From: an uncultured delta proteobacterium
GTDB taxonomy: Bacteria; Myxococcota_A; Polyangia; Polyangiales; Polyangiaceae
Reading direction: 5' to 3'
DNA: 64,000 nt
Assembly (NCBI GenBank): GCA_963696385.1
Contig: CAVOKF010000005.1
Span: 256,001-320,000 of the forward strand
Shown here: positions 8,447 to 40,906 of the stretch, one piece after another
Layout of the letters: every line of letters begins with the position of its first letter
How positions within the stretch are numbered: position 1 is the first letter of the stretch
Program-made: the position numbers and the translations under genes
Notes under the pieces: model-generated
Database searches by the model: none
Seen by the model: the letters and a program-made list of their open reading frames with translations, nothing else
Told to the model about the DNA's origin: nothing

Positions 8447-9757
8447 ATGGTCGATACGGCCTCCGTCACCGAGGAATTGAAATCCGCCCTCGCAACAGAG
8501 GAAGGGCCACGTCGTTGGGTGCGTCGGCTCACCGCAACGGGCGGGATGTCCATCGCGCTCGCGGTCGGTATCCTCTGGAGCGCCAAGCACCGACCTCCTC
8601 CACCCCCCCGATTCGTTTCGGCGGTCGTCGCCGTCGGCGACGTCATCGAGCGCGTCCAGGCCACGGGTACGGTGCAACCGCTTCTCCAGGTGAACGTCGG
8701 AGCGCAGGTCAATGGGCGCGTCACTCAGGTATTTGTCGATTACAACTCGATCGTTAAGAAAGGAGAGGTGCTCGCCGAGATCGACCCGCTCATTTACGGA
8801 ACCCAAGTGAGCGCGCAGGAGGCCAACCTCGCTTCCCAGAAGGCGCTGCTCCTGCAGGCCAGAGCAGCAGCAGCCGGCAATCGGGCGCAGCTCGCGTCGG
8901 CGAGGCTCGTGCTCGAGCGAACCCAGCGGCTCTTCGCGCAGAACCTCGCCAGCCACGCCGACCTTGACACGGCAAGCGGGAACTACAACACGGCAAGTGC
9001 CCAATACGACGCGGCCGAGGCGAATGTGCAGAGCCAGCAGGCATCGATTGCCGCTCAGACCGCTCAACTTCACCAGTCGACAGCCAACCTGAGTTACACG
9101 AAAATCTATTCGCCGGTCGACGGAATGGTCGTCACGCGAGGAATCGATCCCGGGGCGACGGTCGTTGCGAGTTTTCAGGCTCCAGTTCTGTTCGTAATAG
9201 CGCAGGACCTTCGACACATGCGCGTGCTCGCTGATGTCGACGAGGCGGACGTCGGAAAGATTGACGAGGGCATGGACGCCGACTGCGTGGTCGATGCATT
9301 CCCCGGCGACGTGTTTCACGGCACGCTGTCTCAGATTCGGTACAGCCCGAACAACGTCTCCGGTGTGGTGACCTATTCGGCCGTCGTGGACGTCGAGAAC
9401 CCCGAGGCAAAGCTTCGCCCGGGAATGACGACGACGATCACCGTGCACACGCATGAGGTCCATGGCGTGCCGCGCATTCCGAACGCCGCTCTTCGCTATC
9501 GCCCGACGCCGGCCAATGGGTCGGACGGCAAGCCGGTCGCGCAGGCTCCGGAGGTACCGCTCCTGAAGAATCAAGGACGTGTCTGGGTCCTTTCGAGCGA
9601 CCGTCCGGGCGAAGAGAATGACACGCCCCGGATCGTGTCGATTGGAATCACCGACGGTATGTACACGGAAGTGACCGATTCATCGCTCACTGTCGGGACT
9701 AGGGTCGTTACCGACGCGACTGACGTTGATGCGAAGAAGAACAAGAAGGCGTTCTGA
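8447..9757 (+). CDS. MacA-like periplasmic adaptor (membrane fusion protein)
   Basis: N-terminal TM, ATGTVQP...VGAQVNGRV...VKKGEVLAEID, coiled coil, IYSPVDGMVV, VDEADVG and LRPGMT. Confidence 0.92.
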   Translation: MVDTASVTEELKSALATEEGPRRWVRRLTATGGMSIALAVGILWSAKHRPPPPPRFVSAVVAVGDVIERVQATGTVQPLLQVNVGAQVNGRVTQVFVDYNSIVKKGEVLAEIDPLIYGTQVSAQEANLASQKALLLQARAAAAGNRAQLASARLVLERTQRLFAQNLASHADLDTASGNYNTASAQYDAAEANVQSQQASIAAQTAQLHQSTANLSYTKIYSPVDGMVVTRGIDPGATVVASFQAPVLFVIAQDLRHMRVLADVDEADVGKIDEGMDADCVVDAFPGDVFHGTLSQIRYSPNNVSGVVTYSAVVDVENPEAKLRPGMTTTITVHTHEVHGVPRIPNAALRYRPTPANGSDGKPVAQAPEVPLLKNQGRVWVLSSDRPGEENDTPRIVSIGITDGMYTEVTDSSLTVGTRVVTDATDVDAKKNKKAF

Positions 9758-11022
9758 TGGCGGCCGTCTCGTCTCTCGAACGGCCGGCGCTCATCGAACT
9801 CGTGCGTGTTTCGAAGGAGTACGAGACTGGGGGGACGGTCGTACGCGCGATGCGCGAAGTCGACCTTTCGGTTGCGCGCGGCGAATTCGTGGCCATCGTC
9901 GGCGCGAGCGGGTCGGGCAAATCGACGATGATGAACATCATCGGGTGTCTCGATCGTCCGACGCGTGGGACCTATACGCTGGCCGGCATCGCGGTTGGGA
10001 ATCGGTCAGGCGACTCTCGCGCCATCGTTCGCAACCGCGTCATCGGCTTCATCTTCCAGGGGTTCAACTTGCTGCCCCGTACGACCGCGCTCGAAAACGT
10101 CGAGCTACCCCTGCAGTACAGGGGGATCGGCCTGCGCGATCGCCGCAGGCGCGCCCGCGCCGTGCTCGAAGCCGTCGGTCTCGGCGACCGACTGGATCAT
10201 ACGCCGCACCAACTCTCGGGCGGCCAGCAGCAACGGGTGGCCATTGCCCGCGCGCTCGTGACCGATCCACCTCTTTTACTGGCCGACGAGCCGACCGGAA
10301 ACCTCGACACCCGCACGAGTCTCGAAGTGCTGGCTCTTCTCCAGAGGCTCAACCGCGAGCTCCGCATCACCATCGTCCTCGTTACGCATGAACAGGAAAT
10401 CGCTGGCTGCGCTTCGCGGGTGGTTACGATGCGCGACGGGCGGATCGTCGGCGATGTGGTGCAAGAGCGACCTCTCGATGCGGCCCGCGAGCTAGCGCGC
10501 CTGCCTTTGGACGATCGCAATGACCCGGGCCCGGCCGAGGGCGATGTCGGTGGCGTCGGCGGCGCGGCAGGCACCCCGCCCGTAGGTGTTTTTGCGCTCA
10601 TGCTCGTCGTGCAGGTCTCCGGCTTTGCTCTGGCGATGCTCTACTGCCGCGGCCTCGTGGGTCTCGGCGTGGCAAAGTCGCTCTGGATCGGACTCTTGGC
10701 CGGCGAAGTGACGATGACGTGGGCTGCCGCGCAATGGGCGAGACGGCGTTTCGGAAGGCCTACGACGGTCGACCAGCGTGCGCGGATCGCTTTCGGCTAC
10801 ACGATGGCTGTGACGTGCGGCCTGATGGCGGCCATGCTCGTCGCGTACGCTCTCGTTCCAGGGCGCGAGCGTACGCCTTCCGTTGTCGCACAGGTGCTCG
10901 CCGTAGCCGAAGGCGGCATGCCTAACGCCTGCGTGATCCTCGCTGGGGGCGTTTTTGCGTTTCTCTCCGGCACAATACTATTTCGCTACTTGCTCCTGAC
11001 CGCCTTTGGACGGGGGCCTTGA
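9757..11022 (+). CDS. MacB-type ABC ATP-binding subunit with a C-terminal ~4-TM extension
   Basis: Walker [30 protein letters not shown] and VTH are intact, followed by about 150 aa of hydrophobic helices. Confidence 0.9.
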
Positions 11023-11023
11023 C

Positions 11024-11470
11024 ATGGGTGGCGCCAGCCCGGAGGACCGACTGTCGGCCGAGGCTTCATCCGCGGGCGTGGTTTTCGCAGCGATGCTCGT
11101 CGCGACGGTCGCCGGACAACTGGTCGGCATGGCCGTGGACGCAGCGATGGGATCACGTTCTTTCTGGGTACCTATCGGGTCCAGCGTCGTGTTCGAGGGG
11201 ATTGCAGGGGCACGGGTCGCGGCGTCGCGTTGGGGACGGCCGCTGACGGTTCGAGAAAGCTGGCGCGTCTCGTTGATGTACTCGCTCGCATGGCTCGCAA
11301 TTACGGCTCCCCTTGCGGTGTGGGTTTGCTTGTCGAGAGGCCCTGTCTCAGGCTCTTTGCCGGGCCCCATGTGGACCCTCGGGGGGTTGGCGCTGGCGCT
11401 CGGTGCGCTTGTGGCAGCGACCCTCTTGCGCTGGGCCGTTCTGGTCGCGTCCGCGCCGAGGACGAGATGA
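11024..11470 (+). CDS. Small 4-TM membrane protein, paralogous to the C-terminal extension of the upstream ATPase
   Basis: Hydrophobic helices. VFAAMLVATVAG and RWGRPLTV match [12 protein letters not shown] and RFGRPTTV. Stop overlaps the next ATG. Confidence 0.75.
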   Translation: MGGASPEDRLSAEASSAGVVFAAMLVATVAGQLVGMAVDAAMGSRSFWVPIGSSVVFEGIAGARVAASRWGRPLTVRESWRVSLMYSLAWLAITAPLAVWVCLSRGPVSGSLPGPMWTLGGLALALGALVAATLLRWAVLVASAPRTR

Positions 11471-12687
11471 TTGCGACACTATTCGGCGCCTTGCGCTCGG
11501 CCCTCGGAGCGATCTCGCGCAACAAGCTGCGTGCGGTGCTTACCGTTCTCGGCGTCTTCATCGGGATTACCGCGGTCGTGGTCGTAATGGCGGCCGGAAC
11601 GAGCACTACGGCGACGATCGGGGGCGAAATCGACAGCTTGGCGGCGAACGCTCTCTTTGTCTTCCCGCAGCCCGTTCAGGCCTCCGGCGCCAGGAGCAAA
11701 GTCGTGGGCCGACTGACCGAGAGCGATGGGCGCGCGATTTCACGTGAGGCAGTGAGCGTGTCGGGCGCCGCCCCGTGGCTCTCCACCAGCGGCCAGGTCG
11801 TGTACGGTGACAAGAACTGGTCGACGACTCTGGCCGGAACGACCCTCGCGTATTTCCCAATCCGGCGGTTTACCGTCGCTTCGGGATCGATGTGGACGGA
11901 GAGCGACGAGGTGCTCAAAACCAAGGTGTGCCTTATCGGCCAGACGGTTGCCACGAGCGTGTTTGGCGCGGAGGACCCCGTCGGCCGAACGCTGCGGATT
12001 GGACGCTCGCCGTATACCGTCATCGGAGTCCTGGCCGCGCGTGGCACATCGCTCGTCGGCGACGATCAGGACGATCGCGTGCTCATGCCGATCGGAAGCT
12101 TTCGCGCGCGTGTGATGCACACGTCTCCCGGGCGCGCGGACCAACTCATCGTGAGCGCCACGAACGATCAGACGGTGAATCGCGCGAAGGCGCAGATCGA
12201 GACCATTCTTCGAGAGCGCCATCGGGTCGCGCCCGGACGCGAAGACTTTACCGTCAGCACGCAGGCGGAGTTTCGCGAGGCGACCGAAGGGGTCCTCCAG
12301 GCCCTCGCCCTTCTGCTTCTTTGCGTCGCCGCCGTCAGTCTTGTCGTAGGTGGAATAGGGGTCATGAACATCATGCTCGTCAGCGTCGCAGAAAGGACCC
12401 GTGAGATCGGCATCCGGATGTCGATCGGCGCACGCGGGCGCGATATTTTGGTGCAGTTTCTCGTTGAAGCGATCGTTCTGACCATGATCGGTGGCGTTCT
12501 CGGTATCGGGTTCGGTAGCGGTATCACCATCGCGCTCGGGCGGCTGATCGGATGGGCAATGGCACCAAGCGCGCCTGTGCTCGCCGTTGCCGTCGGGACG
12601 AGCGTTGCCATCGGGACCCTTTTCGGTTTCTTGCCCGCGTGGCGCGCAGCGAAACTCGATCCCATCCTAGCTTTACGGGCGGAGTGA
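11467..12687 (+). CDS. MacB/FtsX-family ABC permease
   Basis: NKLRAVLTVLGVFIG, periplasmic domain, GGIGVMNIMLVSVAERTREIGIRMSIGA and PAWRAAKLDPI. Confidence 0.93.
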   Translation: MIATLFGALRSALGAISRNKLRAVLTVLGVFIGITAVVVVMAAGTSTTATIGGEIDSLAANALFVFPQPVQASGARSKVVGRLTESDGRAISREAVSVSGAAPWLSTSGQVVYGDKNWSTTLAGTTLAYFPIRRFTVASGSMWTESDEVLKTKVCLIGQTVATSVFGAEDPVGRTLRIGRSPYTVIGVLAARGTSLVGDDQDDRVLMPIGSFRARVMHTSPGRADQLIVSATNDQTVNRAKAQIETILRERHRVAPGREDFTVSTQAEFREATEGVLQALALLLLCVAAVSLVVGGIGVMNIMLVSVAERTREIGIRMSIGARGRDILVQFLVEAIVLTMIGGVLGIGFGSGITIALGRLIGWAMAPSAPVLAVAVGTSVAIGTLFGFLPAWRAAKLDPILALRAE

Positions 12688-12690
12688 GCG

Positions 12691-13917
12691 ATGGCTGTCC
12701 TCGGCGACGGCGTGGTTTCGGCGGCGCGCGCGATCGTTCGCAATCCACTGCGAGCCTCGCTCACCGTGCTCGGCATCGCGATCGCCGTCGCCGCCGTCGT
12801 CACGGTCGATGCCATCGGCGCCGGCGGCAAAGAGCGTGTTTCCGCGCAGATCGAGGCGATTGGGTCGAATTTCATCGTCGTCTTTCCGCAGGCCTCGCAG
12901 GTTTCTGGCGCGCGTTCCGCTCAAGGTTCGGGCATGCGTCTCACCGAAGACGATGGGCGCGCCATCATCCGCGAGTCGACGAGCGTCGCCGCCGTCGCAC
13001 CCGCGCTACGCACGGTCGTCCAAGTCGTGTACGGCGACCAGAACTGGTCGACCCAGGCGTTCGGAACGCGCCTCCCATACTTCGAAGTCCGCAATTGGGC
13101 CATCGAACATGGCGCGGCGTGGGACCCTCACGACGAGGCGACCAAGTCCAAAGTGATCGTGATTGGACAGACCGTTGCGCGCACTCTCTTCGGAAGCGAG
13201 GACCCGGTCGGTCGTACCGTGCGGATAGGGCGTTATCCCTACCGCGTACTCGGAGTGCTCGCCGCCAAGGGCGAAACACCCTTCGGCGCCGATCAGGACG
13301 ACATCGTTTTGATGCCCTCGACCAGTTTTCGCGCGCGCGTGATGCGAACGCCGCCGGGCTTCGCGGGCGCATTGATGGCTTCGGCAAGTTCGGCCGAAAC
13401 GACCGACGGGGCCGTGCGTCAGATCGAAGCGATTCTCCGGCAGCGCCACCGCATCGAAGGGGACCGAGAAGCCGACTTCAGGATCCGAACGCAGAAGGAG
13501 TTTGCGGACATGAAGGACCGCATCTCGACCGTTCTCTCGCTCCTTCTTCTGTTCGTTGCGGCCGTCAGTCTGTTCGTCGGCGGCATTGGAGTGATGAACA
13601 TCATGCTCGTGAGCGTGACCGAGCGGACTCGCGAGATCGGGATCCGCATGGCGATCGGCGCACGCGAAGCGGACATCCGAACCCAGTTTCTGGTGGAGGC
13701 CGTGATGCTGGCGTTCTTGGGCGGCGTGTCGGGCGTCTTGGCGGGCGCAACGTTCGTTTCCATGCTTCGGGCAGTCCTGGGGTGGCCGATGTCCCTGCGG
13801 CCCGTCGCGATTGCCGTAAGCGTAGTGGTGAGCGCGACGACCGGCATAGCGTTCGGATTTTTCCCTGCTCGGCGTGCCGCCCGGCTCGACCCGATGGAGG
13901 CGCTGCGGCACGAGTGA
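12691..13917 (+). CDS. MacB/FtsX-family ABC permease (second paralog)
   Basis: NPLRASLTVLGIAI, GGIGVMNIMLVSVTERTREIGIRMAIGA and PARRAARLDPMEALRHE. Confidence 0.93.
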   Translation: MAVLGDGVVSAARAIVRNPLRASLTVLGIAIAVAAVVTVDAIGAGGKERVSAQIEAIGSNFIVVFPQASQVSGARSAQGSGMRLTEDDGRAIIRESTSVAAVAPALRTVVQVVYGDQNWSTQAFGTRLPYFEVRNWAIEHGAAWDPHDEATKSKVIVIGQTVARTLFGSEDPVGRTVRIGRYPYRVLGVLAAKGETPFGADQDDIVLMPSTSFRARVMRTPPGFAGALMASASSAETTDGAVRQIEAILRQRHRIEGDREADFRIRTQKEFADMKDRISTVLSLLLLFVAAVSLFVGGIGVMNIMLVSVTERTREIGIRMAIGAREADIRTQFLVEAVMLAFLGGVSGVLAGATFVSMLRAVLGWPMSLRPVAIAVSVVVSATTGIAFGFFPARRAARLDPMEALRHE

Positions 13918-14713: not shown

Positions 14714-15741
14714 ATGGCCTTGCGATGCGTGTCCTACAGGTCGACCCGCACCGGCCCGATCCCCTCCGCGATTGAGGAGGCTGCGCAGGTTCTCGAACGC
14801 GGGGGTCTGGTCGCCTTTCCGACCGAGACCGTCTACGGACTGGGCGCCCGGGCGTTCGATGAGCGAGCCGTGTTGCGCGTATTCAACGTCAAGGGCCGTC
14901 CCCAGCACCATCCGCTCATCTTGCACGTGACGACCGAGAATCAGGCCAGAGCACTGGCCATCGGGTGGCCTGATGCAGCGTCACGTCTCGCTCGCGCGTT
15001 CTGGCCGGGACCACTCACGGTGGTCGTTCAGCGCGGCGATCGCGTCCCGGCAGCCGTTGCAGGGGGGGGAGTTCGGTCGCCATCCGCGCACCGCGGCATG
15101 CGGTCGCGCACGCCCTGATCGCCGCGCTCGGCGAACCGGTCGCCGCGCCAAGCGCGAACCGATTTCGTGAATTGTCGCCCACGATCGCCGCTCACGTCTT
15201 GAAGCAACTTCACGAAGGAGTGGACCTCCTGCTCGACGGAGGCCCGTGCGACGCCGGGATCGAGTCGACCGTCGTCGACGTTCGCGGGGCACGACCCCGA
15301 GTCCTGCGCCCCGGTGCAGTTTCGTTTTCGATGCTGCGCGAGGTCGTCGGAGAGTTGGAAGCTCCAGCCGCTTTGCTGGCGAGCGGACAACCGCCGCCTT
15401 CGCCTGGGTTGGATGCGCGCCACTACGCGCCTCGTTCGCGACTGTTGCTGGCCGAGAGCGAAGGGGCTGCTCGGCGGGCCGCGGTCGCCCTTTCGGCGCA
15501 CGGCGCGACAGTCGGTCTCGTCGTTCTCGAAGCCGATGCGCACGCCCAGGACGGTCGGGCGAGGATTCTCGAACGGGCACTTTCTTGGGACCCCGAACGG
15601 TATGCACGACAGTTGTTCGCGACGCTGCACGACCTCGACGACCGGGGGGTCGAGGCCATCGTCGTACAGCGAGTCCCAAGTGACGAGGCGTGGTCCGCGA
15701 TCGCCGATCGATTGACCCGCGCCGCGGCTCCGATGCCATAA
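14714..15741 (+). CDS. tsaC: L-threonylcarbamoyladenylate synthase (TsaC/Sua5 with SUA5 C-terminal domain), frameshifted at G8 run 15062-15069
   Basis: VAFPTETVYGLGA, KGRP..HPLILH and FWPGPLT. After adding one G: VAIRAP...AAPSANRF, GIESTVVD, LRPG and SPG...HYAP. Confidence 0.92.
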
Positions 15742-29672: not shown

Positions 29673-30146
29673 ATGACAAAGCCAGAAGCGAAGGACGAGC
29701 AGCTGATCGTCAAAAATCGCCGCGCCGTTTTCGATTACGACATCACCGAGCGGTTCGAGGCGGGCCTCTCGCTCGCTGGCAGCGAAGTGAAAGCAATGCG
29801 CGCTGGAAAGGTGGACGTGTCCGATGCGTTCGTCTCGGTTGAACGCGGTGAGGCGTGGCTCCGGCAGATGTTCGTTGCGCCGTTCGAAGCCGCAAATGCC
29901 TTTCCCCACGAACCGCGTCGACCGCGCAAGCTCCTGCTTCACGCGCGTGAGATTGCTGTTATCGGCCGCGCGCTGGCGCGTGACGGCTGCACGGCGGTGC
30001 CGGTCCGTCTCTACTTCAAGCGCGGTCGCGTGAAGGTGGAGGTCGGGATCGGCACGGGTAGAAAGCACTACGACAAGCGGGCCCACATCGCGCAGCGTGA
30101 CGCGCAACGAGAGGCGCGGGCAGTAGTGCGCGGTGCGAAGCGATGA
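29673..30146 (+). CDS. smpB: SsrA-binding protein
   Basis: NRRAVFDY, EAGLSLAGSEVK, RPRKLLLH and GRKHYDKR. Confidence 0.97.
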   Translation: MTKPEAKDEQLIVKNRRAVFDYDITERFEAGLSLAGSEVKAMRAGKVDVSDAFVSVERGEAWLRQMFVAPFEAANAFPHEPRRPRKLLLHAREIAVIGRALARDGCTAVPVRLYFKRGRVKVEVGIGTGRKHYDKRAHIAQRDAQREARAVVRGAKR

Positions 30147-30448
30147 AGGACGAGCGCGTAGCGCGAAGCCAGGGAGAGGCACATGTCCGATGGTCCAAGG
30201 GCGGTGAAGGGCGTATCGTGTCCATCGATGCGGAGTCCATTGTGCTTCGTTCCACGGTTCCGGCGCCCCCGGGATCGCGCATCGACGGTTTGACGGCGTC
30301 GCCAATCAGGTTTGCCGTGCGCGTCAAGATTCATGCGTGCAGGCGTCAGCCGGAGGGGGACTTTCTGCTCGAAGGCCGCCCGCTGGATTTGAAACGGGAG
30401 CAACGCGAGCGACTCCAGGTCGTGGCGCGGGAATGCCGCGGTCCGTGA
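30143..30448 (+). CDS. Small hypothetical protein, possibly a degenerate PilZ-like beta barrel
   Basis: ATGA overlap with smpB. Alternating beta pattern, but no canonical RxxxR or DxSxxG. Confidence 0.6.
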   Translation: MKDERVARSQGEAHVRWSKGGEGRIVSIDAESIVLRSTVPAPPGSRIDGLTASPIRFAVRVKIHACRRQPEGDFLLEGRPLDLKREQRERLQVVARECRGP

Positions 30449-30505: not shown

Positions 30506-31216
30506 TCACGGTTTGGTTCCAGAGCCGCTGCGGCGCGCAGCGGCCCGTCCGATCGCCATAAGTGCGCAGCCGATCGCCAAGACGACGAGGGCCATGGCGC
30601 TTGCGCGTTCCGACAGATCCATCGGAGGCACGCCGCCGAGCAGGTTTCGCAGGTGAGCCCGTGGGGTGATCGCGGCCGCCGACTCGTTTCCCGTTCCGAG
30701 CACCCAATCGAGGACGAGAAACGCGGCGCGCCCGCCGCCGCGCCGGCCGAAGGCCGCGCCGAGCGACAGCCATGATCCGTAGGCGGCTCCGCCGAGCGCG
30801 CCCGCATACGCGCTGGTGAGAGCGTCGCACGTTCGCGGTGGGTCCGCTGAGCCATGCGCGACCAGAGCCACCGCGGCCGCCAGCGACGCACCAAGCAGGC
30901 CGCAGGCCGCTACAGCGACCGCGACGATCGCCATGGCGGCGCCGGTCGGGCTCGCCCCGAACGCGACGAGCGGTCTGCTCGACCCGGAGAGCGAGCGGGT
31001 GCCGCAGACGGCGCCGACCATCACGTACGCGATGAGTGGAAGCGCCAGCGCCGCGTACGTCTCCACGAGTGCGTGATCCGCCCCGTGCACCCAGCCTCCG
31101 GCATGCGCTATGAACGCCGCCGTTACGGCGAGCGCGCACCATGCCATGACGGCGACCAGACTCCGAGGCGTTCGCGTGAGTCGCGCGAACGGGGGTCGTG
31201 CGAGCACCCCGATCAT
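30506..31216 (-). CDS. ABC-2-type membrane protein (about 6 TM)
   Basis: Hydrophobic. ATG overlaps the ATPase stop (ATGA). Confidence 0.7.
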   Translation of the reverse strand: MIGVLARPPFARLTRTPRSLVAVMAWCALAVTAAFIAHAGGWVHGADHALVETYAALALPLIAYVMVGAVCGTRSLSGSSRPLVAFGASPTGAAMAIVAVAVAACGLLGASLAAAVALVAHGSADPPRTCDALTSAYAGALGGAAYGSWLSLGAAFGRRGGGRAAFLVLDWVLGTGNESAAAITPRAHLRNLLGGVPPMDLSERASAMALVVLAIGCALMAIGRAAARRSGSGTKP

Positions 31217-32214
31217 CGCGCCCTCGCTGAATCGGTCTCGGTCGACGCCTCGGGTGCACGGGAAAGGATCGTTCGCATTCGCTCGTACGCGTTCGCATGA
31301 GTGGCGGCCGCGATGCCAGCGGATGCGGCGCGCGCTTCCTCGAGCGTTGGTGGTTGAAGGCGAAGCTCGGCAACGACGACACTCGCTTCGATGGCTGCGT
31401 GGGCCGCGGCTCGAGCGAGCGCCAAGGGGTCGCTGCCGCGCGCGCGTACGACGGCTCCTTGGTGTTCGACGGCGCAGACGTCCTGTGCCCGGGCGATTTC
31501 GGCCGCGAGGGCTAAAGCTTGTTGGACGTCGCCGACCAGCATCACGACCTCGGTGCCGTCCGGCGAGAAGCCCATCAAAGGCTCGAGCGATGCGACGCGT
31601 CCGATGACCACCCCGGCCCTCAGGATGAGGTGATCGGTGGCGATTTCGCTGGCATCGCGCATCGACGCCGTCGCGCATATGATCGCGCAGCCGGAGCGAG
31701 CCTTTGCGCGAAGGGCCTCGGCCACCTGGCAGGCCGCGCGCGGGTCGATGGTGCAAAACGGCTCCTCGATCAGCAGGACACGAACTTGGCTTGACGTGAG
31801 CGCCTCCGCGAGCGCGATGGCGCGCATCTCTCCCCGCGAGAGCGACCGCACGAGCCGCTTAGCCAATGATTCGACACCGAGCGTAGCGAGTCGCTCGGCC
31901 GCGTGGCCCGGTTGGTTCCCGCGTATGACCGCAGCCACGTCGAGCGTCTCGTCGACGCGAAGCCCTTCGGGCAGCGACAGCTCCAAGGGGACGCGAGCGA
32001 CCTGCTGGCGCACGCGTGAGTCTCCGGGCGATCGGCCGAGAACCAGGGTGCGACCGGTCCGAGCTCGCCTGGCGCCGGCAACGAGTGCGAGAAGGAGGGT
32101 GCCGCCATCTTCGACCCGTCCAATGACGGAGTGAATGCCCGGTCCCCACGCGAGCGTCGCGTTCGCAAGGGCGAGCGACCCGTGACGCGCGCTCACGTTC
32201 TCGAGCGCGATCAT
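31213..32214 (-). CDS. ABC ATPase-like protein with degenerate catalytic motifs
   Basis: ABC fold order is kept, but Walker A reads GRVEDGGT, Q-loop VPLE, signature LSRGE, Walker B LLIEEP and H-loop ATAS. Confidence 0.85.
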   Translation of the reverse strand: MIALENVSARHGSLALANATLAWGPGIHSVIGRVEDGGTLLLALVAGARRARTGRTLVLGRSPGDSRVRQQVARVPLELSLPEGLRVDETLDVAAVIRGNQPGHAAERLATLGVESLAKRLVRSLSRGEMRAIALAEALTSSQVRVLLIEEPFCTIDPRAACQVAEALRAKARSGCAIICATASMRDASEIATDHLILRAGVVIGRVASLEPLMGFSPDGTEVVMLVGDVQQALALAAEIARAQDVCAVEHQGAVVRARGSDPLALARAAAHAAIEASVVVAELRLQPPTLEEARAASAGIAAATHANAYERMRTILSRAPEASTETDSARAR

Positions 32215-32978
32215 GCCCCGATCCCCGCCTCGCCGCGGGGTATCCTGGCGCGCACGACGGCGAGGGACCCGGCGACGATCGCCGCCAAGCCCACGATCGC
32301 CCGAGCCGTGTGGGCCGTTCCGGTTATGGGGTGGGTGATGCCTGCGCGCACCGCCTCGAGAGCCGTCGGAATCGATGTGACTTCCTGCCATCCGGCGGGC
32401 AAGATCCTCGACGTCCATGGCGAGACCAGCTCCGGGAGTACGAGGACCGCCAGCAGGGTCATATACCCGGCGAATCGCGATTTCGCGCCGAGTGCTGCCA
32501 TGGCGACCGGCCCGAGGGTGACCGAGAACGCAAGCGCGTATACGGTCCCGGCGGCAGTGGCCGCCAGCGCCGGCTCCACGGGCCTCGAAACGGCAATGGC
32601 CGAGAGGCCGCAGACGAACGTGGTACCCGCCACCGCGAGGGCCAGCAATGCAACGAGTCCGCCGACGCGACCCCAGACGTACGCGCTCAGTGAGACGCCG
32701 CGCAGACGCACGAGCGAAATGACTCCGTCGTCCGAGTCCCTCGGGATCGCCCGCAGTCCGCCTCCGAACGCGAGCATCACCCCGGCGCTCCATGCGATGG
32801 TCGAACCCGCCGCCACCGGCAGGTGAGCCGCGGCGGCGCTCCTCGTTGAAAAGGCGATGGCGCACGCGACGAGTCCGCACACGACAGCCAATCCGAATGC
32901 GGTCACGACCAAACCTTCGCGCAAAGCCAGCCCGACACCCAAGGCTATCAGTCGCGGCCGCCCCGTGGACGCTCGCAT
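32211..32978 (-). CDS. ABC-2-type membrane protein (about 6 TM)
   Basis: Hydrophobic, with an ABC-2-like segment RDSDDGVISLVRLRGVS...YVWGR. Stop overlaps the ATPase start. Confidence 0.7.
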   Translation of the reverse strand: MRASTGRPRLIALGVGLALREGLVVTAFGLAVVCGLVACAIAFSTRSAAAAHLPVAAGSTIAWSAGVMLAFGGGLRAIPRDSDDGVISLVRLRGVSLSAYVWGRVGGLVALLALAVAGTTFVCGLSAIAVSRPVEPALAATAAGTVYALAFSVTLGPVAMAALGAKSRFAGYMTLLAVLVLPELVSPWTSRILPAGWQEVTSIPTALEAVRAGITHPITGTAHTARAIVGLAAIVAGSLAVVRARIPRGEAGIGA

Positions 32979-33057
32979 GGTCTCCACGAGACCACACCGC
33001 GGGCGGATTCGCCAGCCGCCGCAGACTCCGCGGACGTGCAACAATCGTCGACGTCCG

Positions 33058-35364
33058 ATGACCGCAGGCGCGACCCATGCACCATTCGCGACGTGGGGCC
33101 GTCGTTTTCCCCTGCTCGCGTTCCTCGCGCTCGCAAGCGTCTCGTCGATGGCAGTCGAGCGCGGGCGGCAGCCGCGCGCGGGATGCGCGGCGCTCGTCGC
33201 GATGGCAATAGCCTTTGCGGCCTCCCGGCGACGGAATACCATCGCGCGCCTTGCTGGCTGGGGTTTGGCGCTCGTCGTGGCGTCCCTCGGCGTTGCGGAC
33301 GGCACCAGCCGAGCCCTGGACGCTGCGAGCGCACTGGGCGAGCTCTCGTGCGTCGTCGCAGCCTGTCTAGCGATCGCTCACGTCCCGCCGAGCGAGGGCC
33401 TTGTGAAGGCTGCACCGCATTCATCGGGTACCGCCATCGGCATCGTGATTGGCGCTTGGTGGCTGGCACTGACCGCCGCGGTAGCGCCCGAGCAGCGGTC
33501 GGTTGCTTGGATGACTCGGTATCCCGCGGCATGGGAATCCGCCGCGATTGGCGTGAGTGCGTTGGTCATCGTCGTCGCGTGCGAGCGATTGCGAATCCGT
33601 CGTCGCCTCGAGCTTGGGGTCGCGGAACGAGTTCGGGCGATCCGAACGTGGCTTGCTACGGTCTCTCTGGCCTCGGTGCTCATCGGCGCTCTTGCGTCCG
33701 AAGACGTGGGCGACATCGCTCGGCTTGGACTTTCCGTTGGGGCAACTTGCGTCACTTGGGCGGGCCTGCACTCGGATGCTGCCGCCGTGGCTCGCGCGGC
33801 TCGCCGCGTCGGGGTCCTCGCCTTCACTGGCGGGACTGTCGCGCTCCTCGGTAGTTCCGCCGTGGCGGGTCGCGCGGGCGATCCATGGCTTCTGACGTTT
33901 TCGACCGCCGTCGCGGGGCTCGCGATTGGATCGGCTGCCTCGCGCATCGAATCATCGCTACGTCCGGCAGGCGGGGGGTGGCTGGATGCGTTTGAACGCG
34001 CTTCGGAGGCGGCCCTGCACGCCGATCCGTGCGAGGCGGTCCGTGGCGTTCTCTTCGCTTTGCGATCTCCGCTGGGCGTGGCAAGCCCGTCGCCCGAGCT
34101 CTGGACGTTATGTCCCTCCCGCGTGATGACGGTTGACGCGGCGGGGTACGCCCACGAACGCGAGGAACAGCCGCCGAGCGAACTCGCGCCGGTGGCAGCG
34201 GAGGAGCCATTCGGAACGTTGCGGGTCGAGCTCCTCGACGCGCTTGAGGTGAGGCGGCCGGAGATCCGATCCATCGCGTCCTGGATGGCCGAGCGTGGCG
34301 CTCTGCTCGCCACGGTTGTCGGGTGCGACGGTGAAACGGAGGCGGTCCTTGTCTTGCCTCGGGGCCACCGAGGCGTCCCGTCGACGCTAGAGGAGATCCG
34401 GGGCGTCAGGCGGGTCGCCGACCGACTGGCCGTCGCTTGCCGAGCGCGAGGAACGGAGCTGCGCTTGCTCGATCGCGTCCAGCACGCAATGGCGCGCGCC
34501 GACGCGGCGGTTGAGGGAATGGCACGGTTGCAGCACCAGCGGGCGCGCGACATCGAGCGGCATGCTCTCGATGCGGCTCGGCTGGCGCAGCCCGCCACGG
34601 TAGGGGTCTACGGCTCATCCTCGCGCATGGCGCTCGAGGCACTCGAGCGACGAACGGTCATCGGAGCCCCCGTTGCCGTAGTGTCGCCCAGTGGTGTGGA
34701 TCCGGCGCCTTATCTCGCACGGGCGCACCTGTCCGGATCGCGCGGGCGGGGACCTCTGGTTCTGATCGACGCGACGATCGCGCGCGAGCACGACGTTGCC
34801 CGTTGGATCGATCCGAATCGGTCCCCTCTTGCCATCGCCGAAGGGGGCTTGCTCGTGCTGCTCGATGCGAATGCGCTGCCGGCCGACGTGCAACGGCTCA
34901 TTGCACGGGCCTGCCTCGAGGCTCGCGCTCCGTGGGATCGCGCGGAGCCCCTCGACGTGCAGATTGCGATCACCGGCATCTCGTCGCCGGACGAACTCGT
35001 GACCACCGGAAGGCTCGATTCCGCTCTTGCGGCACGTCTCGGGGAGGCGCGCGCGGCGCCCGTCGTGCTGCCGCGTTTGCGAGACCGACCGGACGATTTT
35101 CGCGCGATCCTTACCGACCGGTTGGCGCGCGAAGGTCTTCGCGTTCGTGGTCATCCCGTCGGCATCGAGAACGCAGCGTACCTGCGCCTCGCGGAATATC
35201 CGTTTCCCGGCGACGATGCCGAGCTGTCGGCGGTCGTCATTCGGATGGTGGCGCGATGCGAGGGCGACAGGGTCCGTGTTGCCGATCTCGATCGGCCCCA
35301 TTTTCTTGCGATCTCGGACGACCTTTGCGAGTCGAAGCATCGAAAAGATCCGCTGTCGGCGTGA
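33058..35364 (+). CDS. Multi-TM/GAF-like protein with a degenerate sigma-54 activator AAA+ domain and no HTH
   Basis: About 8-9 TM, a GAF-like middle region and a coiled coil. bEBP remnants: AEGGLLVLLD..ALP.DVQ, LPRLRDRPDD and YPFPGDDAEL. Confidence 0.75.
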   Translation: MTAGATHAPFATWGRRFPLLAFLALASVSSMAVERGRQPRAGCAALVAMAIAFAASRRRNTIARLAGWGLALVVASLGVADGTSRALDAASALGELSCVVAACLAIAHVPPSEGLVKAAPHSSGTAIGIVIGAWWLALTAAVAPEQRSVAWMTRYPAAWESAAIGVSALVIVVACERLRIRRRLELGVAERVRAIRTWLATVSLASVLIGALASEDVGDIARLGLSVGATCVTWAGLHSDAAAVARAARRVGVLAFTGGTVALLGSSAVAGRAGDPWLLTFSTAVAGLAIGSAASRIESSLRPAGGGWLDAFERASEAALHADPCEAVRGVLFALRSPLGVASPSPELWTLCPSRVMTVDAAGYAHEREEQPPSELAPVAAEEPFGTLRVELLDALEVRRPEIRSIASWMAERGALLATVVGCDGETEAVLVLPRGHRGVPSTLEEIRGVRRVADRLAVACRARGTELRLLDRVQHAMARADAAVEGMARLQHQRARDIERHALDAARLAQPATVGVYGSSSRMALEALERRTVIGAPVAVVSPSGVDPAPYLARAHLSGSRGRGPLVLIDATIAREHDVARWIDPNRSPLAIAEGGLLVLLDANALPADVQRLIARACLEARAPWDRAEPLDVQIAITGISSPDELVTTGRLDSALAARLGEARAAPVVLPRLRDRPDDFRAILTDRLAREGLRVRGHPVGIENAAYLRLAEYPFPGDDAELSAVVIRMVARCEGDRVRVADLDRPHFLAISDDLCESKHRKDPLSA

Positions 35365-35556: not shown

Positions 35557-36279
35557 ATGGACACGCTGCAGGGATTCGCGACGAACGCGCTGCGCGCGAC
35601 CGGGAGGCTTGCCTTCGTGGCGGCTGTGCTGGCCTGCGGCGGTTGTGAGGGTGACGACAACCCTTACAAGCCCCAGCCGGCGTGGTCCGGAAAGGCCGCC
35701 AGTTTGCCTTCTCCGCCATCGCCGCCGAGCACCCCCATCAAACAAGGGGATGCGTACACGGTGTACGGTGCGATTCATCAGCTGCGAAGCTTGATCCACA
35801 ACAAGGACGTCACCGCACAACCCATTTCGATCACGGGCTACGTCGTCGATTCGAACATTCCCCGTGCTCCCGACTGCGCCGTTCACAAAACCGGCAAGAA
35901 GGACCCGGACAATTGCAATCCCGAAGTGCCGAGCTTCTGGGTCGCGGATGATCAGGGAAACAACAAGGGACCGAAGATCCGTGTCGTGGGCTGGGCGCGC
36001 AATTTCGCCGTCGTTTACGACGCGATGGTCGCTTACAAGAAGGTCAAGCCGGGAGACCAGCCCAAGGAGCCTATCACCGACGACATGCTGAACGTCACCG
36101 TGCCGTTTCCTCTCCCGGCCGTCGGCGCAAAGGTCAAGATCACGGGGGCTTACAACATTGCCAAAACCGTCGTTTCCGACATGGTGAGCGAGCCAATGGG
36201 CGGCGTCATGGTCCTCCAGAAGATGGACGTCATCGATCCGGCTCCCGAGCCAGCGAAGTTCGCCAAGCCGATCCCGTAA
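35557..36279 (+). CDS. Hypothetical lipoprotein (possible OB-fold)
   Basis: GGAGGAG RBS, lipobox-like VLAC/GGC and strong coding bias. Confidence 0.8.
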
Positions 36280-39026: not shown

Positions 39027-40906
39027 GTGCGTTTCGCCCGAGCCCGTCGCCTGGTTGCGCTGGCGGCTTTGCTCGTTGCGTGCGCCGTTGCACCTACTTT
39101 GGCGTGTGCCCGTGTACAGGCGCGTAGCCGACCCGACGAAGTCGATAGTCGGGCCCGCGAGCGCGTGTCAAGCAACGTCGAGCGTCGGGACTACGCGGGT
39201 TCGGCTGCGTGTGCGCGATGCCATGCCGCGATCGCGGCTGCGTGGGCACGATCGCCGATGCACCGGATGACGCGCGAAGCGAACGGCATCGAGGTCCGTG
39301 CACCGTTCGACGGCACGCGGTGGCGCTTCAAAGAGGACTCGGTCGTTCTGGATTGCCGCGGCGACGACCGGTTCTGCCACGTCGAGACCTCGCGTGGCGC
39401 TCGCAACGACTACCGTGTCACGATGGTTCTCGGGGGGCGCACGCGCGAAGATTTCGTCGGCGTCGACGTAGCGACGGGGGGCGACGAACTCGTGCTGCCC
39501 GTCTCGTACGTCTTCAAGACGGGCGCGCTTCGCTACAAAGGGTACTCGGTCATGGTGCACGAGCGCACCGGCTTGCGCGCCGGGCCGCGCTGGAAAATGC
39601 TTGCGTGTTTTGCCACAACACAGTCCCCCAAGTCGATCGCCTGCTGGGCGCACTCTGCGGACCGAAACCAAGTCCGTACCAGGGTGAACAAGTCGACCGC
39701 TGGCTCCCAATCGAGCGGCGCCAGACAACCAGCGTTGTCGAAAATGGCTCCTTCGCGCAGTCAGTGGCCGCGGAAACCGCCCATCTCGGGCACCGTTTGC
39801 GGGTTGAGTCAGGACCCCCCGACACGCTCGCGTGCCAGGCGATTGCAATTGTCCGGTCGCGTTTCGACCGGTCGTCGCTCGTGGAGGTGGGGATCGGTTG
39901 CGAGGCGTGCCATGGGGGTGCCCGCGAGCACGCGCTCGATCCCGGTGTGCGTCCGGCGCTGTCGCCTGTGGCGCCTTGGCTACGTGTCGACTTGCCGAAT
40001 CCGAGCACGGCCGCAGCGATCAATCGCGTCTGTGCGGGCTGTCATCAAGTCCTGTTCTCCCGCTATCCGTTTACGTGGGAGGGTGGCCGGCGCGATGCGG
40101 GTGCGGGCGGCAGCCACATCAACTCGGGCGAAGGCCGCGATTTTTTGCTCGGTGGGTGCACGAGTGCAATGGCGTGCACCGCTTGCCACGATCCACACGG
40201 ATCCGATGATGCCGTCGCTCTCGACGCTCTGGCGACCCCTGCCGGCAATGCGACCTGCACCCGTTGCCACGCCGATCTCGCCGACCGCGATCGCTTGCGC
40301 ACCCACTCTCATCACGACCCGGCGGGGGCAGGCGGGTCGTGTGTCGCCTGCCACATGCCGCGCAAGAACATGGGGCTCGACGGATCGCTCACACGCTACC
40401 ATCGGATCGGCTCACCCACTGACCCAGCCCGAGTCCTCGGAGATCGCCCGATCGAGTGTGCTCTGTGCCACGGTGATCGCAGCGTGGGGAGATTGGTGGA
40501 CGCGATGGAAACTTGGTGGCCGGTCCGATACCCCCGGCCGCAACTTGAGGAGCTTTATGGATCGTTGGATGCAAACGTGATCCGAGCGACGCTTGAGCGC
40601 GGAAAGCCTCACGAAAGGGCTGTTGCGATCGCCGCCCTCGGCGAGGCGCGCGCCCGTGACGCAGCTTCGCTGGTGGCGCGCGAGCTCCTCGACGAGTATC
40701 CGCTGGTTCGCGAATGGGCCAAGCGCGCGCTCACATCGATCCTGGGGCGTTGCGATGTGGACCTGGCGGCCGACGACGATACGATCTGGCGCCAGGCCGT
40801 GTCCTCTTGCGGCGGCTCGCTCGAAGCCGCTCCGGCGAAGGGACCTACCGGGCGGGGGCGGGGATCCGACGGGTCCGGGTCCTTGGACGAGGATCCGGAG
40901 GACTGA
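39027..40906 (+). CDS. Multiheme (8 x CxxCH) cytochrome c with C-terminal HEAT-like repeats, frameshifted near 39591-39597
   Basis: CARCH lies in the first frame. CVFCH, CEACH, CAGCH, CTACH, CTRCH, CVACH and CALCH lie in the second. One added base at TGGAAAATG joins them. Confidence 0.85.

What the first reader, a model, noticed from the sequence alone, without database searches (positions are those of the whole stretch)
30506..35364. Head-to-head pair of pseudo-ATPases: a dead ABC transporter operon facing a dead membrane-bound sigma-54 AAA+ protein
Seen: three translationally coupled genes (TM protein, ABC ATPase-like, TM protein) diverge across only 79 bp from a 768-aa TM-GAF-AAA+ gene. 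That spacer holds two 7-bp inverted repeats, TGGTCTC/GAGACCA and CGGACGT/ACGTCCG. Both nucleotide-binding domains lack their catalytic residues, yet all four frames are full length and uninterrupted. Inference: this may be a non-catalytic membrane sensing or scaffolding complex built from a repurposed ABC exporter and a repurposed enhancer-binding protein, possibly acting on active paralogs by hetero-oligomerisation. I know of no described system of this kind.
Basis: partly seen in the sequence, partly recalled or inferred. Interest (0 to 1): 0.75.

Follow-up and report, generated by a model that had tools for sequence, protein, structure and literature searches.

The report
Two ATPase-dead membrane modules, head-to-head
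A whole family of myxobacteria keeps, as single-copy core genes under selection, an ABC-transporter operon and a membrane-bound transcription-activator relative that have both lost the residues needed to use ATP, so both seem repurposed as non-enzymatic membrane modules, though they sit side by side in only one branch of the family.

Summary
In detail: four intact genes, a 79-bp divergent spacer, both nucleotide-binding domains degenerate. This is not decay. The TM-GAF-AAA+ protein occurs in 115 of 121 genomes of the order; 0 of 269 family rows keep the Walker A Lys and none has GAFTGA. Other families keep a conserved Fis HTH; Polyangiaceae lost it. The TM1-NBD-TM2 operon occurs in 129 of 151 family genomes; 0 of 66 NBDs keep the Walker A Lys or H-switch. 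It most likely descends from an active NBD1-TM1-NBD2-TM2 type V ABC operon, which it replaces (active type in 0 of 26 genomes of the two families concerned). dN/dS is 0.22-0.37, and a 1.8-Mb genome keeps all four genes. The joint complex is not established: head-to-head order holds in 33 of 122 family genomes, one clade; the AAA+ protein died earlier and persists where no operon was found; no active NBD partner was found; the two inverted repeats are not conserved, the conserved spacer being back-to-back promoter-like boxes. Hints of a link remain: HTH loss and NBD death map to one branch, and all three HTH losses lie in operon-bearing lineages. Verdict: two real pseudo-ATPase modules not found in my literature searches; one system about 25% likely.

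The parts
30506..31216 (-). TM2: type V (ABC-2) transmembrane subunit, 236 aa
   Evidence: Model pLDDT 96; best fold match NosY, Z 17.0, rmsd 3.0, 224 aligned; profile match to TM2 of the active ancestral operon, probability 96.5
31213..32214 (-). Pseudo-NBD: ABC ATPase fold without Walker A Lys, Q-loop Gln, Walker B Asp or H-switch His; catalytic Glu kept, 333 aa
   Evidence: PF00005 34.4 bits over cut-off 25; motif tallies over 66 family loci; profile match to NBD2
32211..32978 (-). TM1: ABC-2 type transmembrane subunit, 255 aa
   Evidence: PF12698 in 4 of 74 orthologues, best 2e-6; profile match to TM1 of the active operon, probability 98.8
32979..33057 (.). 79-bp divergent spacer
   Evidence: orthologous spacers 59-224 bp by my start calls
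32986..32996 (-). Conserved spacer element, read as the -10-like box of the operon promoter (inference)
   Evidence: recognisable in about 13 of 15 aligned spacers; holds the inner arm of the first inverted repeat
33031..33045 (+). Conserved spacer element, read as an extended -10-like box for the pseudo-bEBP gene (inference)
   Evidence: recognisable in most of 15 aligned spacers; holds the left arm of the second inverted repeat
33058..35364 (+). Membrane pseudo-bEBP: about 9-10 TM helices (13-297), GAF (about 300-465), long helix (444-510), sigma54-activator AAA+ fold (511-750) without catalytic motifs, no HTH; 768 aa
   Evidence: Model pLDDT 89; nine hydrophobic segments before the GAF; AAA+ matches DmpR, FlrC, NtrC4, NtrX, VpsR, FleQ at Z 22-23 and E 1e-11; motif tallies

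Best explanation
Two separately evolved pseudo-ATPase membrane modules, joined by one rearrangement in one clade of Polyangiaceae and there transcribed from a shared divergent promoter, without being obligate partners. (1) The 768-aa protein is a membrane one-component sensor: a multi-TM-GAF input module of the kind found on membrane histidine kinases, fused to a sigma54-activator AAA+ domain that lost ATP use and the sigma54 loop at the base of the order (shown by sequence). Where the Fis HTH is kept, it most likely acts as a membrane-tethered, sigma54- and ATP-independent DNA-binding regulator in the manner of VpsR (inferred). In Polyangiaceae the HTH is gone, so the dead AAA+ fold, the most constrained part of the protein, is most likely a conformational output surface that binds a protein partner, such as a regulator held at the membrane until the sensor releases it (inferred; partner unknown). 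(2) The operon is a type V ABC exporter, probably once a Pmt-like NBD1-TM1-NBD2-TM2 system, that lost NBD1 and then the catalytic residues of NBD2. The pseudo-NBD most likely stays as a structural clamp on a TM1-TM2 heterodimer, giving a complex that cannot pump and works as a passive scaffold, gate or envelope-state sensor (inferred).
For: Degeneracy fixed: AAA+ Walker A Lys 0, Walker B Asp 1, Glu 2, sensor II Arg 32 of 269 rows against 39 of 39 canonical paralogues; NBD Walker A Lys 0, H-switch 0, Q-loop Gln 1, Walker B Asp 8, signature Gly 11 of 66 (rows counted by hand). Purifying selection: dN/dS 0.22-0.37 against G003, AAA+ domain 0.15; genus median 0.19 for that domain, like smpB 0.21 and cysE 0.17. 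Different ages: AAA+ gene in 115 of 121 order genomes; dead operon in f1 15/17 and f11 7/9 only; active operon in 49 of 121 but 0/17 f1 and 0/9 f11. AAA+ gene present with neither operon type found in f3 (14/14) and g15 (14/14). Adjacency 33 of 122, 18 of 66 genera, one clade, 22 of 25 rows; 0.4-4.5 Mb apart in 8 genomes with both on one contig. Gene-for-gene profile matches to the active operon, NBD C-terminal domain 97 vs 6 for NBD2 vs NBD1. Nearest non-order matches of the TM-GAF part are histidine kinases, 9 of 9 whose ends were printed. HTH in 76 of 150 representatives with a nearly invariant recognition helix. VpsR precedent (PMC6158489).
Against: No partner, ligand, substrate or phenotype is identified. 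Loss of ATP binding is inferred from motifs, not measured; the NBD keeps the catalytic Glu in 61 of 66. The tree did not group dead NBDs with NBD2, though the AU test does not reject it (p 0.43). Independence is challenged by HTH loss and NBD death on the same f1+f11 branch, by operon presence in 37 of 40 HTH-less against 32 of 75 HTH-bearing genomes (hand count; only three events), and by retention of the head-to-head block in the 1.8-Mb genome G151. dN/dS of the four genes is higher than that of smpB, cysE and the lipoprotein against G003 (0.02-0.09). 80 of the 89 non-adjacent cases lie on different contigs of draft assemblies, so some may be assembly breaks.
Confidence: 0.55

Rival explanations
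1. One envelope-sensing system: the dead transporter is the co-sensor or output partner of the HTH-less pseudo-bEBP, in the way ABC transporters partner membrane sensor kinases (recalled: BceAB-BceS); the partnership arose in the f1+f11 ancestor and made both the HTH and NBD catalysis dispensable.
For: HTH loss and NBD death map to the same branch; three HTH losses, all in operon-bearing lineages, with a 13 versus 5 split inside f17; head-to-head kept in 22 of 25 rows of one clade with a conserved promoter core; all four genes kept in G151, which has only 4 intact canonical bEBPs; in genus g216 the AAA+ gene lies 5-17 kb from the active operon in 3 genomes.
Against: 89 of 122 family genomes not adjacent; f11 not adjacent in the loci read; smpB linkage on the other side is almost as well kept; 17 of 151 family genomes have the AAA+ gene with no TM2 match; two of three HTH losses are in lineages whose NBDs are active; kin are not independent.
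Confidence: 0.25
2. The transporter still pumps: TM1-TM2 is driven by an active NBD encoded elsewhere, the pseudo-NBD being the degenerate half of an asymmetric pair.
For: The ancestral operon had two different NBDs (16 of 16 loci outside f8/f9/f22); catalytic Glu kept in 61 of 66; this genome holds other DrrA-like active NBDs; degenerate sites are well known in heterodimeric exporters (PMC7756269, PMC12038006; search listing only).
Against: Best score of any protein of this genome is 207 against the NBD1 profile (members 378-496, in-sample) and 202 against NBD2 (413-508); NBD1 had already left the operon while NBD2 was active (f8, f9, f22); the signature Gly that a partner's site would need is kept in only 11 of 66.
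Confidence: 0.1
3. The pseudo-AAA+ domain is mainly a small-molecule receptor (c-di-GMP, as in VpsR and FleQ) or a dominant-negative subunit that enters hexamers of canonical bEBPs.
For: Fold matches VpsR and c-di-GMP-bound FleQ; family-specific conserved Arg691 (84-86% vs 33% in canonical) and Tyr518 (93%); about 40 canonical bEBPs in this genome; bEBP hetero-oligomers exist (PMC9542535).
Against: The Arg after Walker A, which I take to match FleQ R185 (mapping recalled, residues listed in PMC8335546), is Arg in 12% of HTH-less members; trans Arg finger not conserved; the gene is kept where only 4 intact bEBPs remain, so any target would have to be one of a few.
Confidence: 0.08
4. Slow decay of dispensable genes.
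For: dN/dS above housekeeping neighbours; breaks in a few assemblies (AAA+ gene in G007, G047, G195; NBD in G353); f11 NBDs are further eroded.
Against: Single copy and intact in 139 of 151 (AAA+) and 129 of 151 (TM2) family genomes; dN/dS well under 1; kept in a 1.8-Mb genome.
Confidence: 0.02

Closest known systems
Atypical bacterial enhancer-binding proteins (V. cholerae VpsR; also TyrR, HupR, HsfA, PhhR, NtrX as listed in PMC6158489; Caulobacter NtrC, bioRxiv 10.1101/2023.06.06.543975)
   Same: Sigma54-activator AAA+ fold without GAFTGA; VpsR also has a non-canonical Walker B with Glu to Asp and is reported not to need ATP.
   Different: Those are described as soluble DNA-binding regulators; VpsR, NtrX and NtrC carry a receiver domain. 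This one is a 9-10 TM-GAF membrane protein, has also lost the Walker A Lys and sensor II Arg, and in Polyangiaceae has no HTH.
Hetero-oligomeric bEBPs HrpR/HrpS, FleQ/FleT, RedR1/RedR2, VnfA1/VnfA3 (PMC9542535, PMC7277832)
   Different: Those pairs activate sigma54 promoters; here no sigma54 loop, no conserved trans Arg finger, no linked partner bEBP, and a membrane anchor.
Type V ABC systems NosFY, CcmAB, PmtCD, ABCG; S. aureus pmtABCD two-transporter operon (PMC9974410)
   Same: TMD fold (NosY Z 17.0, CcmB 13.2, PmtD 12.7); the active ancestor has two NBD and two TMD genes in one operon.
   Different: All have working NBDs. Here the only NBD of the operon lacks Walker A Lys, Q-loop and H-switch family-wide, so both sites of a homodimer would be dead. 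No substrate is known; no sequence link to Pmt was tested.
Asymmetric ABC exporters with one degenerate site (PMC7756269, PMC12038006; search listing only)
   Same: Conserved non-canonical NBD motifs.
   Different: They keep one consensus site; no active partner NBD was found here.
Multi-TM-GAF histidine kinases of other Myxococcota (PrsK-like; that name is recalled)
   Same: The TM-GAF-helix input module (E down to 2e-12).
   Different: Output is a kinase there, a dead AAA+ (with or without HTH) here.

Membership tests
Sigma54-dependent bEBP | bEBP-type AAA+ fold | tested here: met
   Foldseek E 1e-11 to NtrC1; Z 22-23 to DmpR, FlrC, NtrC4
Sigma54-dependent bEBP | Walker A Lys and Walker B Asp-Glu | tested here: not met
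   Lys 0, Asp 1, Glu 2 of 269 family rows; 39 of 39 canonical
Sigma54-dependent bEBP | GAFTGA loop | tested here: not met
   0 of 268 proteins; 7-column deletion in all 118 close homologues
Sigma54-dependent bEBP | C-terminal Fis HTH | tested here: not met
   Absent in this protein and 118 close homologues; present in 76 of 150 representatives; no stand-alone family HTH in this genome among ORFs of 80 aa or more
Atypical sigma70-type bEBP (VpsR class) | AAA+ fold lacking GAFTGA and canonical Walker B | tested here: met
   VpsR description
Atypical sigma70-type bEBP (VpsR class) | DNA-binding HTH | tested here: not met
   Not in this protein; met by orthologues in other families (PF02954 in 16 of 34)
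Atypical sigma70-type bEBP (VpsR class) | Regulates sigma70 promoters; binds c-di-GMP | not testable with these tools
   needs biochemistry; sequence mapping of the FleQ site inconclusive
Hetero-oligomeric bEBP pair | Conserved trans-acting Arg finger | tested here: not met
   Arg in 34 of 76 HTH and 37 of 69 HTH-less rows, 39 of 39 canonical; kept in 96% of the 118 close homologues
Hetero-oligomeric bEBP pair | Physical association with an active bEBP | not tested
Type V (ABC-2) exporter | Type V TMD fold | tested here: met
   TM2 Z 17.0 to NosY; TM1 by Pfam in 4 of 74 and profile match
Type V (ABC-2) exporter | Cognate NBD with ABC fold in the operon | tested here: met
   PF00005 over cut-off; three-gene order in 66 of 69 loci read
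Type V (ABC-2) exporter | Intact Walker A, Q-loop, signature, Walker B, H-switch | tested here: not met
   0, 1, 11, 8 and 0 of 66; catalytic Glu 61 of 66
Type V (ABC-2) exporter | ATP-driven transport | not testable with these tools
   needs assay
Asymmetric exporter with one degenerate site | An active partner NBD | tested here: inconclusive
   No NBD1 or NBD2 orthologue found in this genome; recruitment of an unrelated NBD not excluded; other genomes not searched for it

The most novel reading that the evidence does not exclude
In Polyangiaceae and its sister family, an ABC exporter that gave up ATP use altogether and a membrane-anchored sigma54-activator relative that gave up ATP, sigma54 and DNA form one core, energy-free envelope signalling device: the dead transporter senses or scaffolds, and the dead AAA+ relays the state to a cytoplasmic partner. 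It is important enough to survive in a 1.8-Mb genome.
Probability: 0.25. Interest if true: 0.85.

Novelty: new variant of a known kind. Interest (0 to 1): 0.66.

Why it matters
Even without a joint complex, each half is unusual. An ABC exporter whose only NBD is degenerate across a whole bacterial family, with the steps of its decline readable in relatives (four-gene active, three-gene active, three-gene dead), is a natural test of what ABC membrane domains do without ATP. A single-copy, order-wide membrane protein with a dead enhancer-binding AAA+ domain that lost its DNA-binding domain about three times shows an AAA+ fold retained purely as a signalling surface. Databases name the HTH-bearing members 'sigma 54-interacting transcriptional regulator', which the motif losses contradict, and close HTH-less members mostly 'hypothetical protein'. 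Both are core genes of a family with cultured members, so they are testable.

Tried and rejected
Complex prediction of the pseudo-NBD (1-295) with the cytoplasmic part of the pseudo-bEBP (296-752): no verdict, score 0.00 in two runs, controls not folded; it is evidence neither way, and membrane-domain contacts were not tried. Inverted repeats as operators: rejected. A stand-alone family HTH gene replacing the lost domain: none found. An active TM-GAF-AAA+ ancestor outside the order: none among 11 weak matches, 9 printed as histidine kinases, 2 unresolved. PDB sequence searches with TM1 and TM2 profiles gave nothing significant; Foldseek on TM2 had no match at E 0.001; TM1 versus TM2 profiles matched only weakly (probability 17.5). 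The fold searches on the 768-aa model tested only the AAA+ part. A 'bEBP' label downstream of the operon in one clade was a clustering artefact: those are receiver-domain proteins. Rfam: no match in the window. Nine literature searches listed no paper on this protein family or operon; the library lacks most subscription papers, and no supplements were read. Earlier findings of the scan: nothing returned.
Full report
Observation. The four genes, their coupling and the 79-bp spacer are as described. Close homologues that carry a name are labelled Polyangiaceae, so I use that name for family f1; the order is then Polyangiales (my knowledge). The NBD scores over the Pfam cut-off for ABC_tran; the 768-aa protein only weakly matches bEBP models, but its AlphaFold model (pLDDT 89) shows a helical membrane region, a GAF-like alpha/beta domain, a long helix and an AAA+ domain that matches sigma54 activators at Z 22-23.

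The AAA+ protein is dead across the order. It is found, nearly always once, in 57 of 61 relatives, 139 of 151 family genomes and 115 of 121 order genomes, and in 0 of 126 genomes outside the order at E 1e-75. Over 150 representatives at 50% identity and 118 close homologues, none has a Walker A Gly-Lys or GAFTGA; by column, Walker A Lys 0, Walker B Asp 1, Glu 2 and sensor II Arg 32 of 269 rows, against 39 of 39 in canonical paralogues of this genome. Structural positions stay conserved. Half of the representatives (76 of 150) end in a Fis HTH with a nearly invariant recognition helix; Polyangiaceae members do not. A tree of 37 proteins needs three changes of HTH state: f1+f11 (one starred clade), part of f17, and f16. 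The TM-GAF part has its nearest matches outside the order in membrane histidine kinases, so the protein looks like a chimera of a kinase input and a bEBP output.

The operon is dead across the family. TM2 is found in 129 of 151 family genomes, and the TM1-NBD-TM2 order recurs throughout the 69 loci read, with the NBD found in 66. Of these 66 NBDs, 0 keep the Walker A Lys, 0 the H-switch, 1 the Q-loop Gln, 8 the Walker B Asp and 11 the signature Gly; 61 keep the catalytic Glu and 54 carry an Asp in the P-loop; 30 canonical NBDs of this genome keep Lys, signature Gly, Asp and Glu in 30 of 30. TM2 folds as a type V TMD (NosY Z 17.0). Family f11 has the same operon, more eroded.

Origin of the operon. 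Other Myxococcota carry an NBD1-TM1-NBD2-TM2 operon with canonical Walker A and B motifs (16 loci), and families f8, f9 and f22 a TM1-NBD2-TM2 version with an active NBD (5 loci, one cut by a contig end). The dead genes match it gene for gene: TM1 98.8 versus 66.6 crosswise, TM2 96.5 versus 12.0, NBD score 281 to NBD2 versus 191 to NBD1, C-terminal domain 97 versus 6. The active type occurs in 49 of 121 order genomes but 0 of 17 f1 and 0 of 9 f11, where the dead type occurs in 15 and 7. Against this, two trees placed the long-branched dead clade away from NBD2; holding them together is not rejected (p-AU 0.43). This genome has no orthologue of NBD1 or active NBD2 by profile score. G010 and G027, also unpublished, enter only the tallies.

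Selection. Against G003, dN/dS (Nei-Gojobori) is 0.26 TM1, 0.37 NBD, 0.26 TM2, 0.22 pseudo-bEBP and 0.15 for its AAA+ domain; neighbours smpB, cysE and the lipoprotein give 0.02-0.09. Across 91 more distant genus pairs the AAA+ domain has median 0.19, like smpB and cysE (synonymous sites near saturation). The 1.8-Mb single-contig genome G151 keeps all four genes intact and head-to-head while holding four intact and two broken canonical bEBPs, against about 40 here. A few assemblies show breaks (G007, G047, G195, G353).

Are the two units one system? Of 122 family genomes with both, 33 (18 of 66 genera) are head-to-head; 9 have both on one contig but apart, 8 of them by 0.4-4.5 Mb; 80 have them on different contigs. 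The head-to-head form falls in one clade, 22 of 25 rows, and the other clades have other upstream neighbours. The smpB block on the other side of the operon is kept almost as well, so this is largely ordinary backbone synteny. In HTH-bearing families the AAA+ gene often lies near prmA-rsmE and is present in f3 and g15, where neither operon type was found. For a link: HTH loss and NBD death fall on the same f1+f11 branch; by hand count the operon was found in 37 of 40 HTH-less and 32 of 75 HTH-bearing genomes (HTH state taken from where the match ends and from family, checked by motif in the 37 proteins), but this is three events among kin; and genus g216 has the AAA+ gene 5-17 kb from the active operon.

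Spacer. The inverted repeats are real but not conserved: both pairs occur in 1 of 15 spacers, and two pairs arise by chance in about 3% of controls. What is conserved is their inner halves, two short elements that read as back-to-back -10-like boxes (promoter reading inferred). The clade thus probably co-regulates the two units.

Mechanism. Most likely (0.55) two independent non-catalytic modules: a membrane sensor whose dead AAA+ domain relays signals, to DNA through the HTH in other families and to a protein partner in Polyangiaceae; and a non-pumping type V ABC complex clamped by a pseudo-NBD. Rivals: one sensing complex (0.25), an asymmetric pump with an unlinked active NBD (0.10), a ligand receptor or dominant-negative bEBP subunit (0.08), decay (0.02). 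Loss of activity is inferred from motifs only.

Literature. Read as passages: PMC6158489 (VpsR and atypical bEBPs), bioRxiv 10.1101/2023.06.06.543975 (Caulobacter NtrC), PMC9542535 (bEBP hetero-oligomers), PMC7277832 (FleQ/FleT), PMC12754779 (PexR, canonical motifs), PMC8335546 (FleQ c-di-GMP residues), PMC9974410 (pmtABCD). Seen as search listing only: PMC7756269, PMC12038006. Nine searches listed nothing on these genes. BceAB-BceS, the name PrsK and the canonical motif definitions are recalled.

Verdict. A real, conserved pair of pseudo-ATPase modules; each is a new variant of a known kind, the fully degenerate ABC operon being the more surprising. The joint complex is open but a minority reading. 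Interest 0.66.

Noticed in passing
window 14729-15738 (+): Sua5/TsaC appears split into two ORFs (14729-15115 and 15172-15738) that match consecutive parts of PF01300 and then Sua5_C; frameshift, assembly error or split gene.
   Followed up: no
window 30143-30448 (+): 101-aa gene overlapping the smpB stop, no Pfam match, found with smpB in about 20 family loci; dN/dS 0.32.
   Followed up: partly
window 35557-36279 (+): Lipoprotein-like gene right after the pseudo-bEBP, no Pfam family, in 15 loci of the head-to-head clade, dN/dS 0.024 against G003; a candidate partner of the sensor.
   Followed up: partly
L121 (G151:C1:1476543-1487211): A 1.8-Mb genome keeps the four genes intact, with prmA next to the pseudo-bEBP as in distant HTH-bearing families.
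   Followed up: partly
L298-L300 (G388, G370, G355): In genus g216 the HTH-bearing pseudo-bEBP lies 5-17 kb from the active TM1-NBD2-TM2 operon, a second, independent proximity.
   Followed up: partly
L189, L194-L198 (family f11): f11 NBDs are eroded further, with the signature region shortened and Walker B reading without Asp-Glu-Pro; G353 shows a frameshift.
   Followed up: no
window 39209-40906 (+); L036, L037, L041, L049: A multi-haem cytochrome gene lies 4 kb downstream here, and multi-haem cytochrome genes lie beside the pseudo-bEBP in four HTH-bearing loci; homology between them not tested.
   Followed up: no
L036-L054: In HTH-bearing families the pseudo-bEBP follows a prmA-rsmE-HEAT-repeat block, often with ligA in between (12 loci with the HEAT gene).
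   Followed up: partly
window 8447-13914 (+): HlyD, ABC ATPase, a 154-aa gene without family and two MacB/FtsX permeases in one run; ordinary-looking efflux operon.
   Followed up: no
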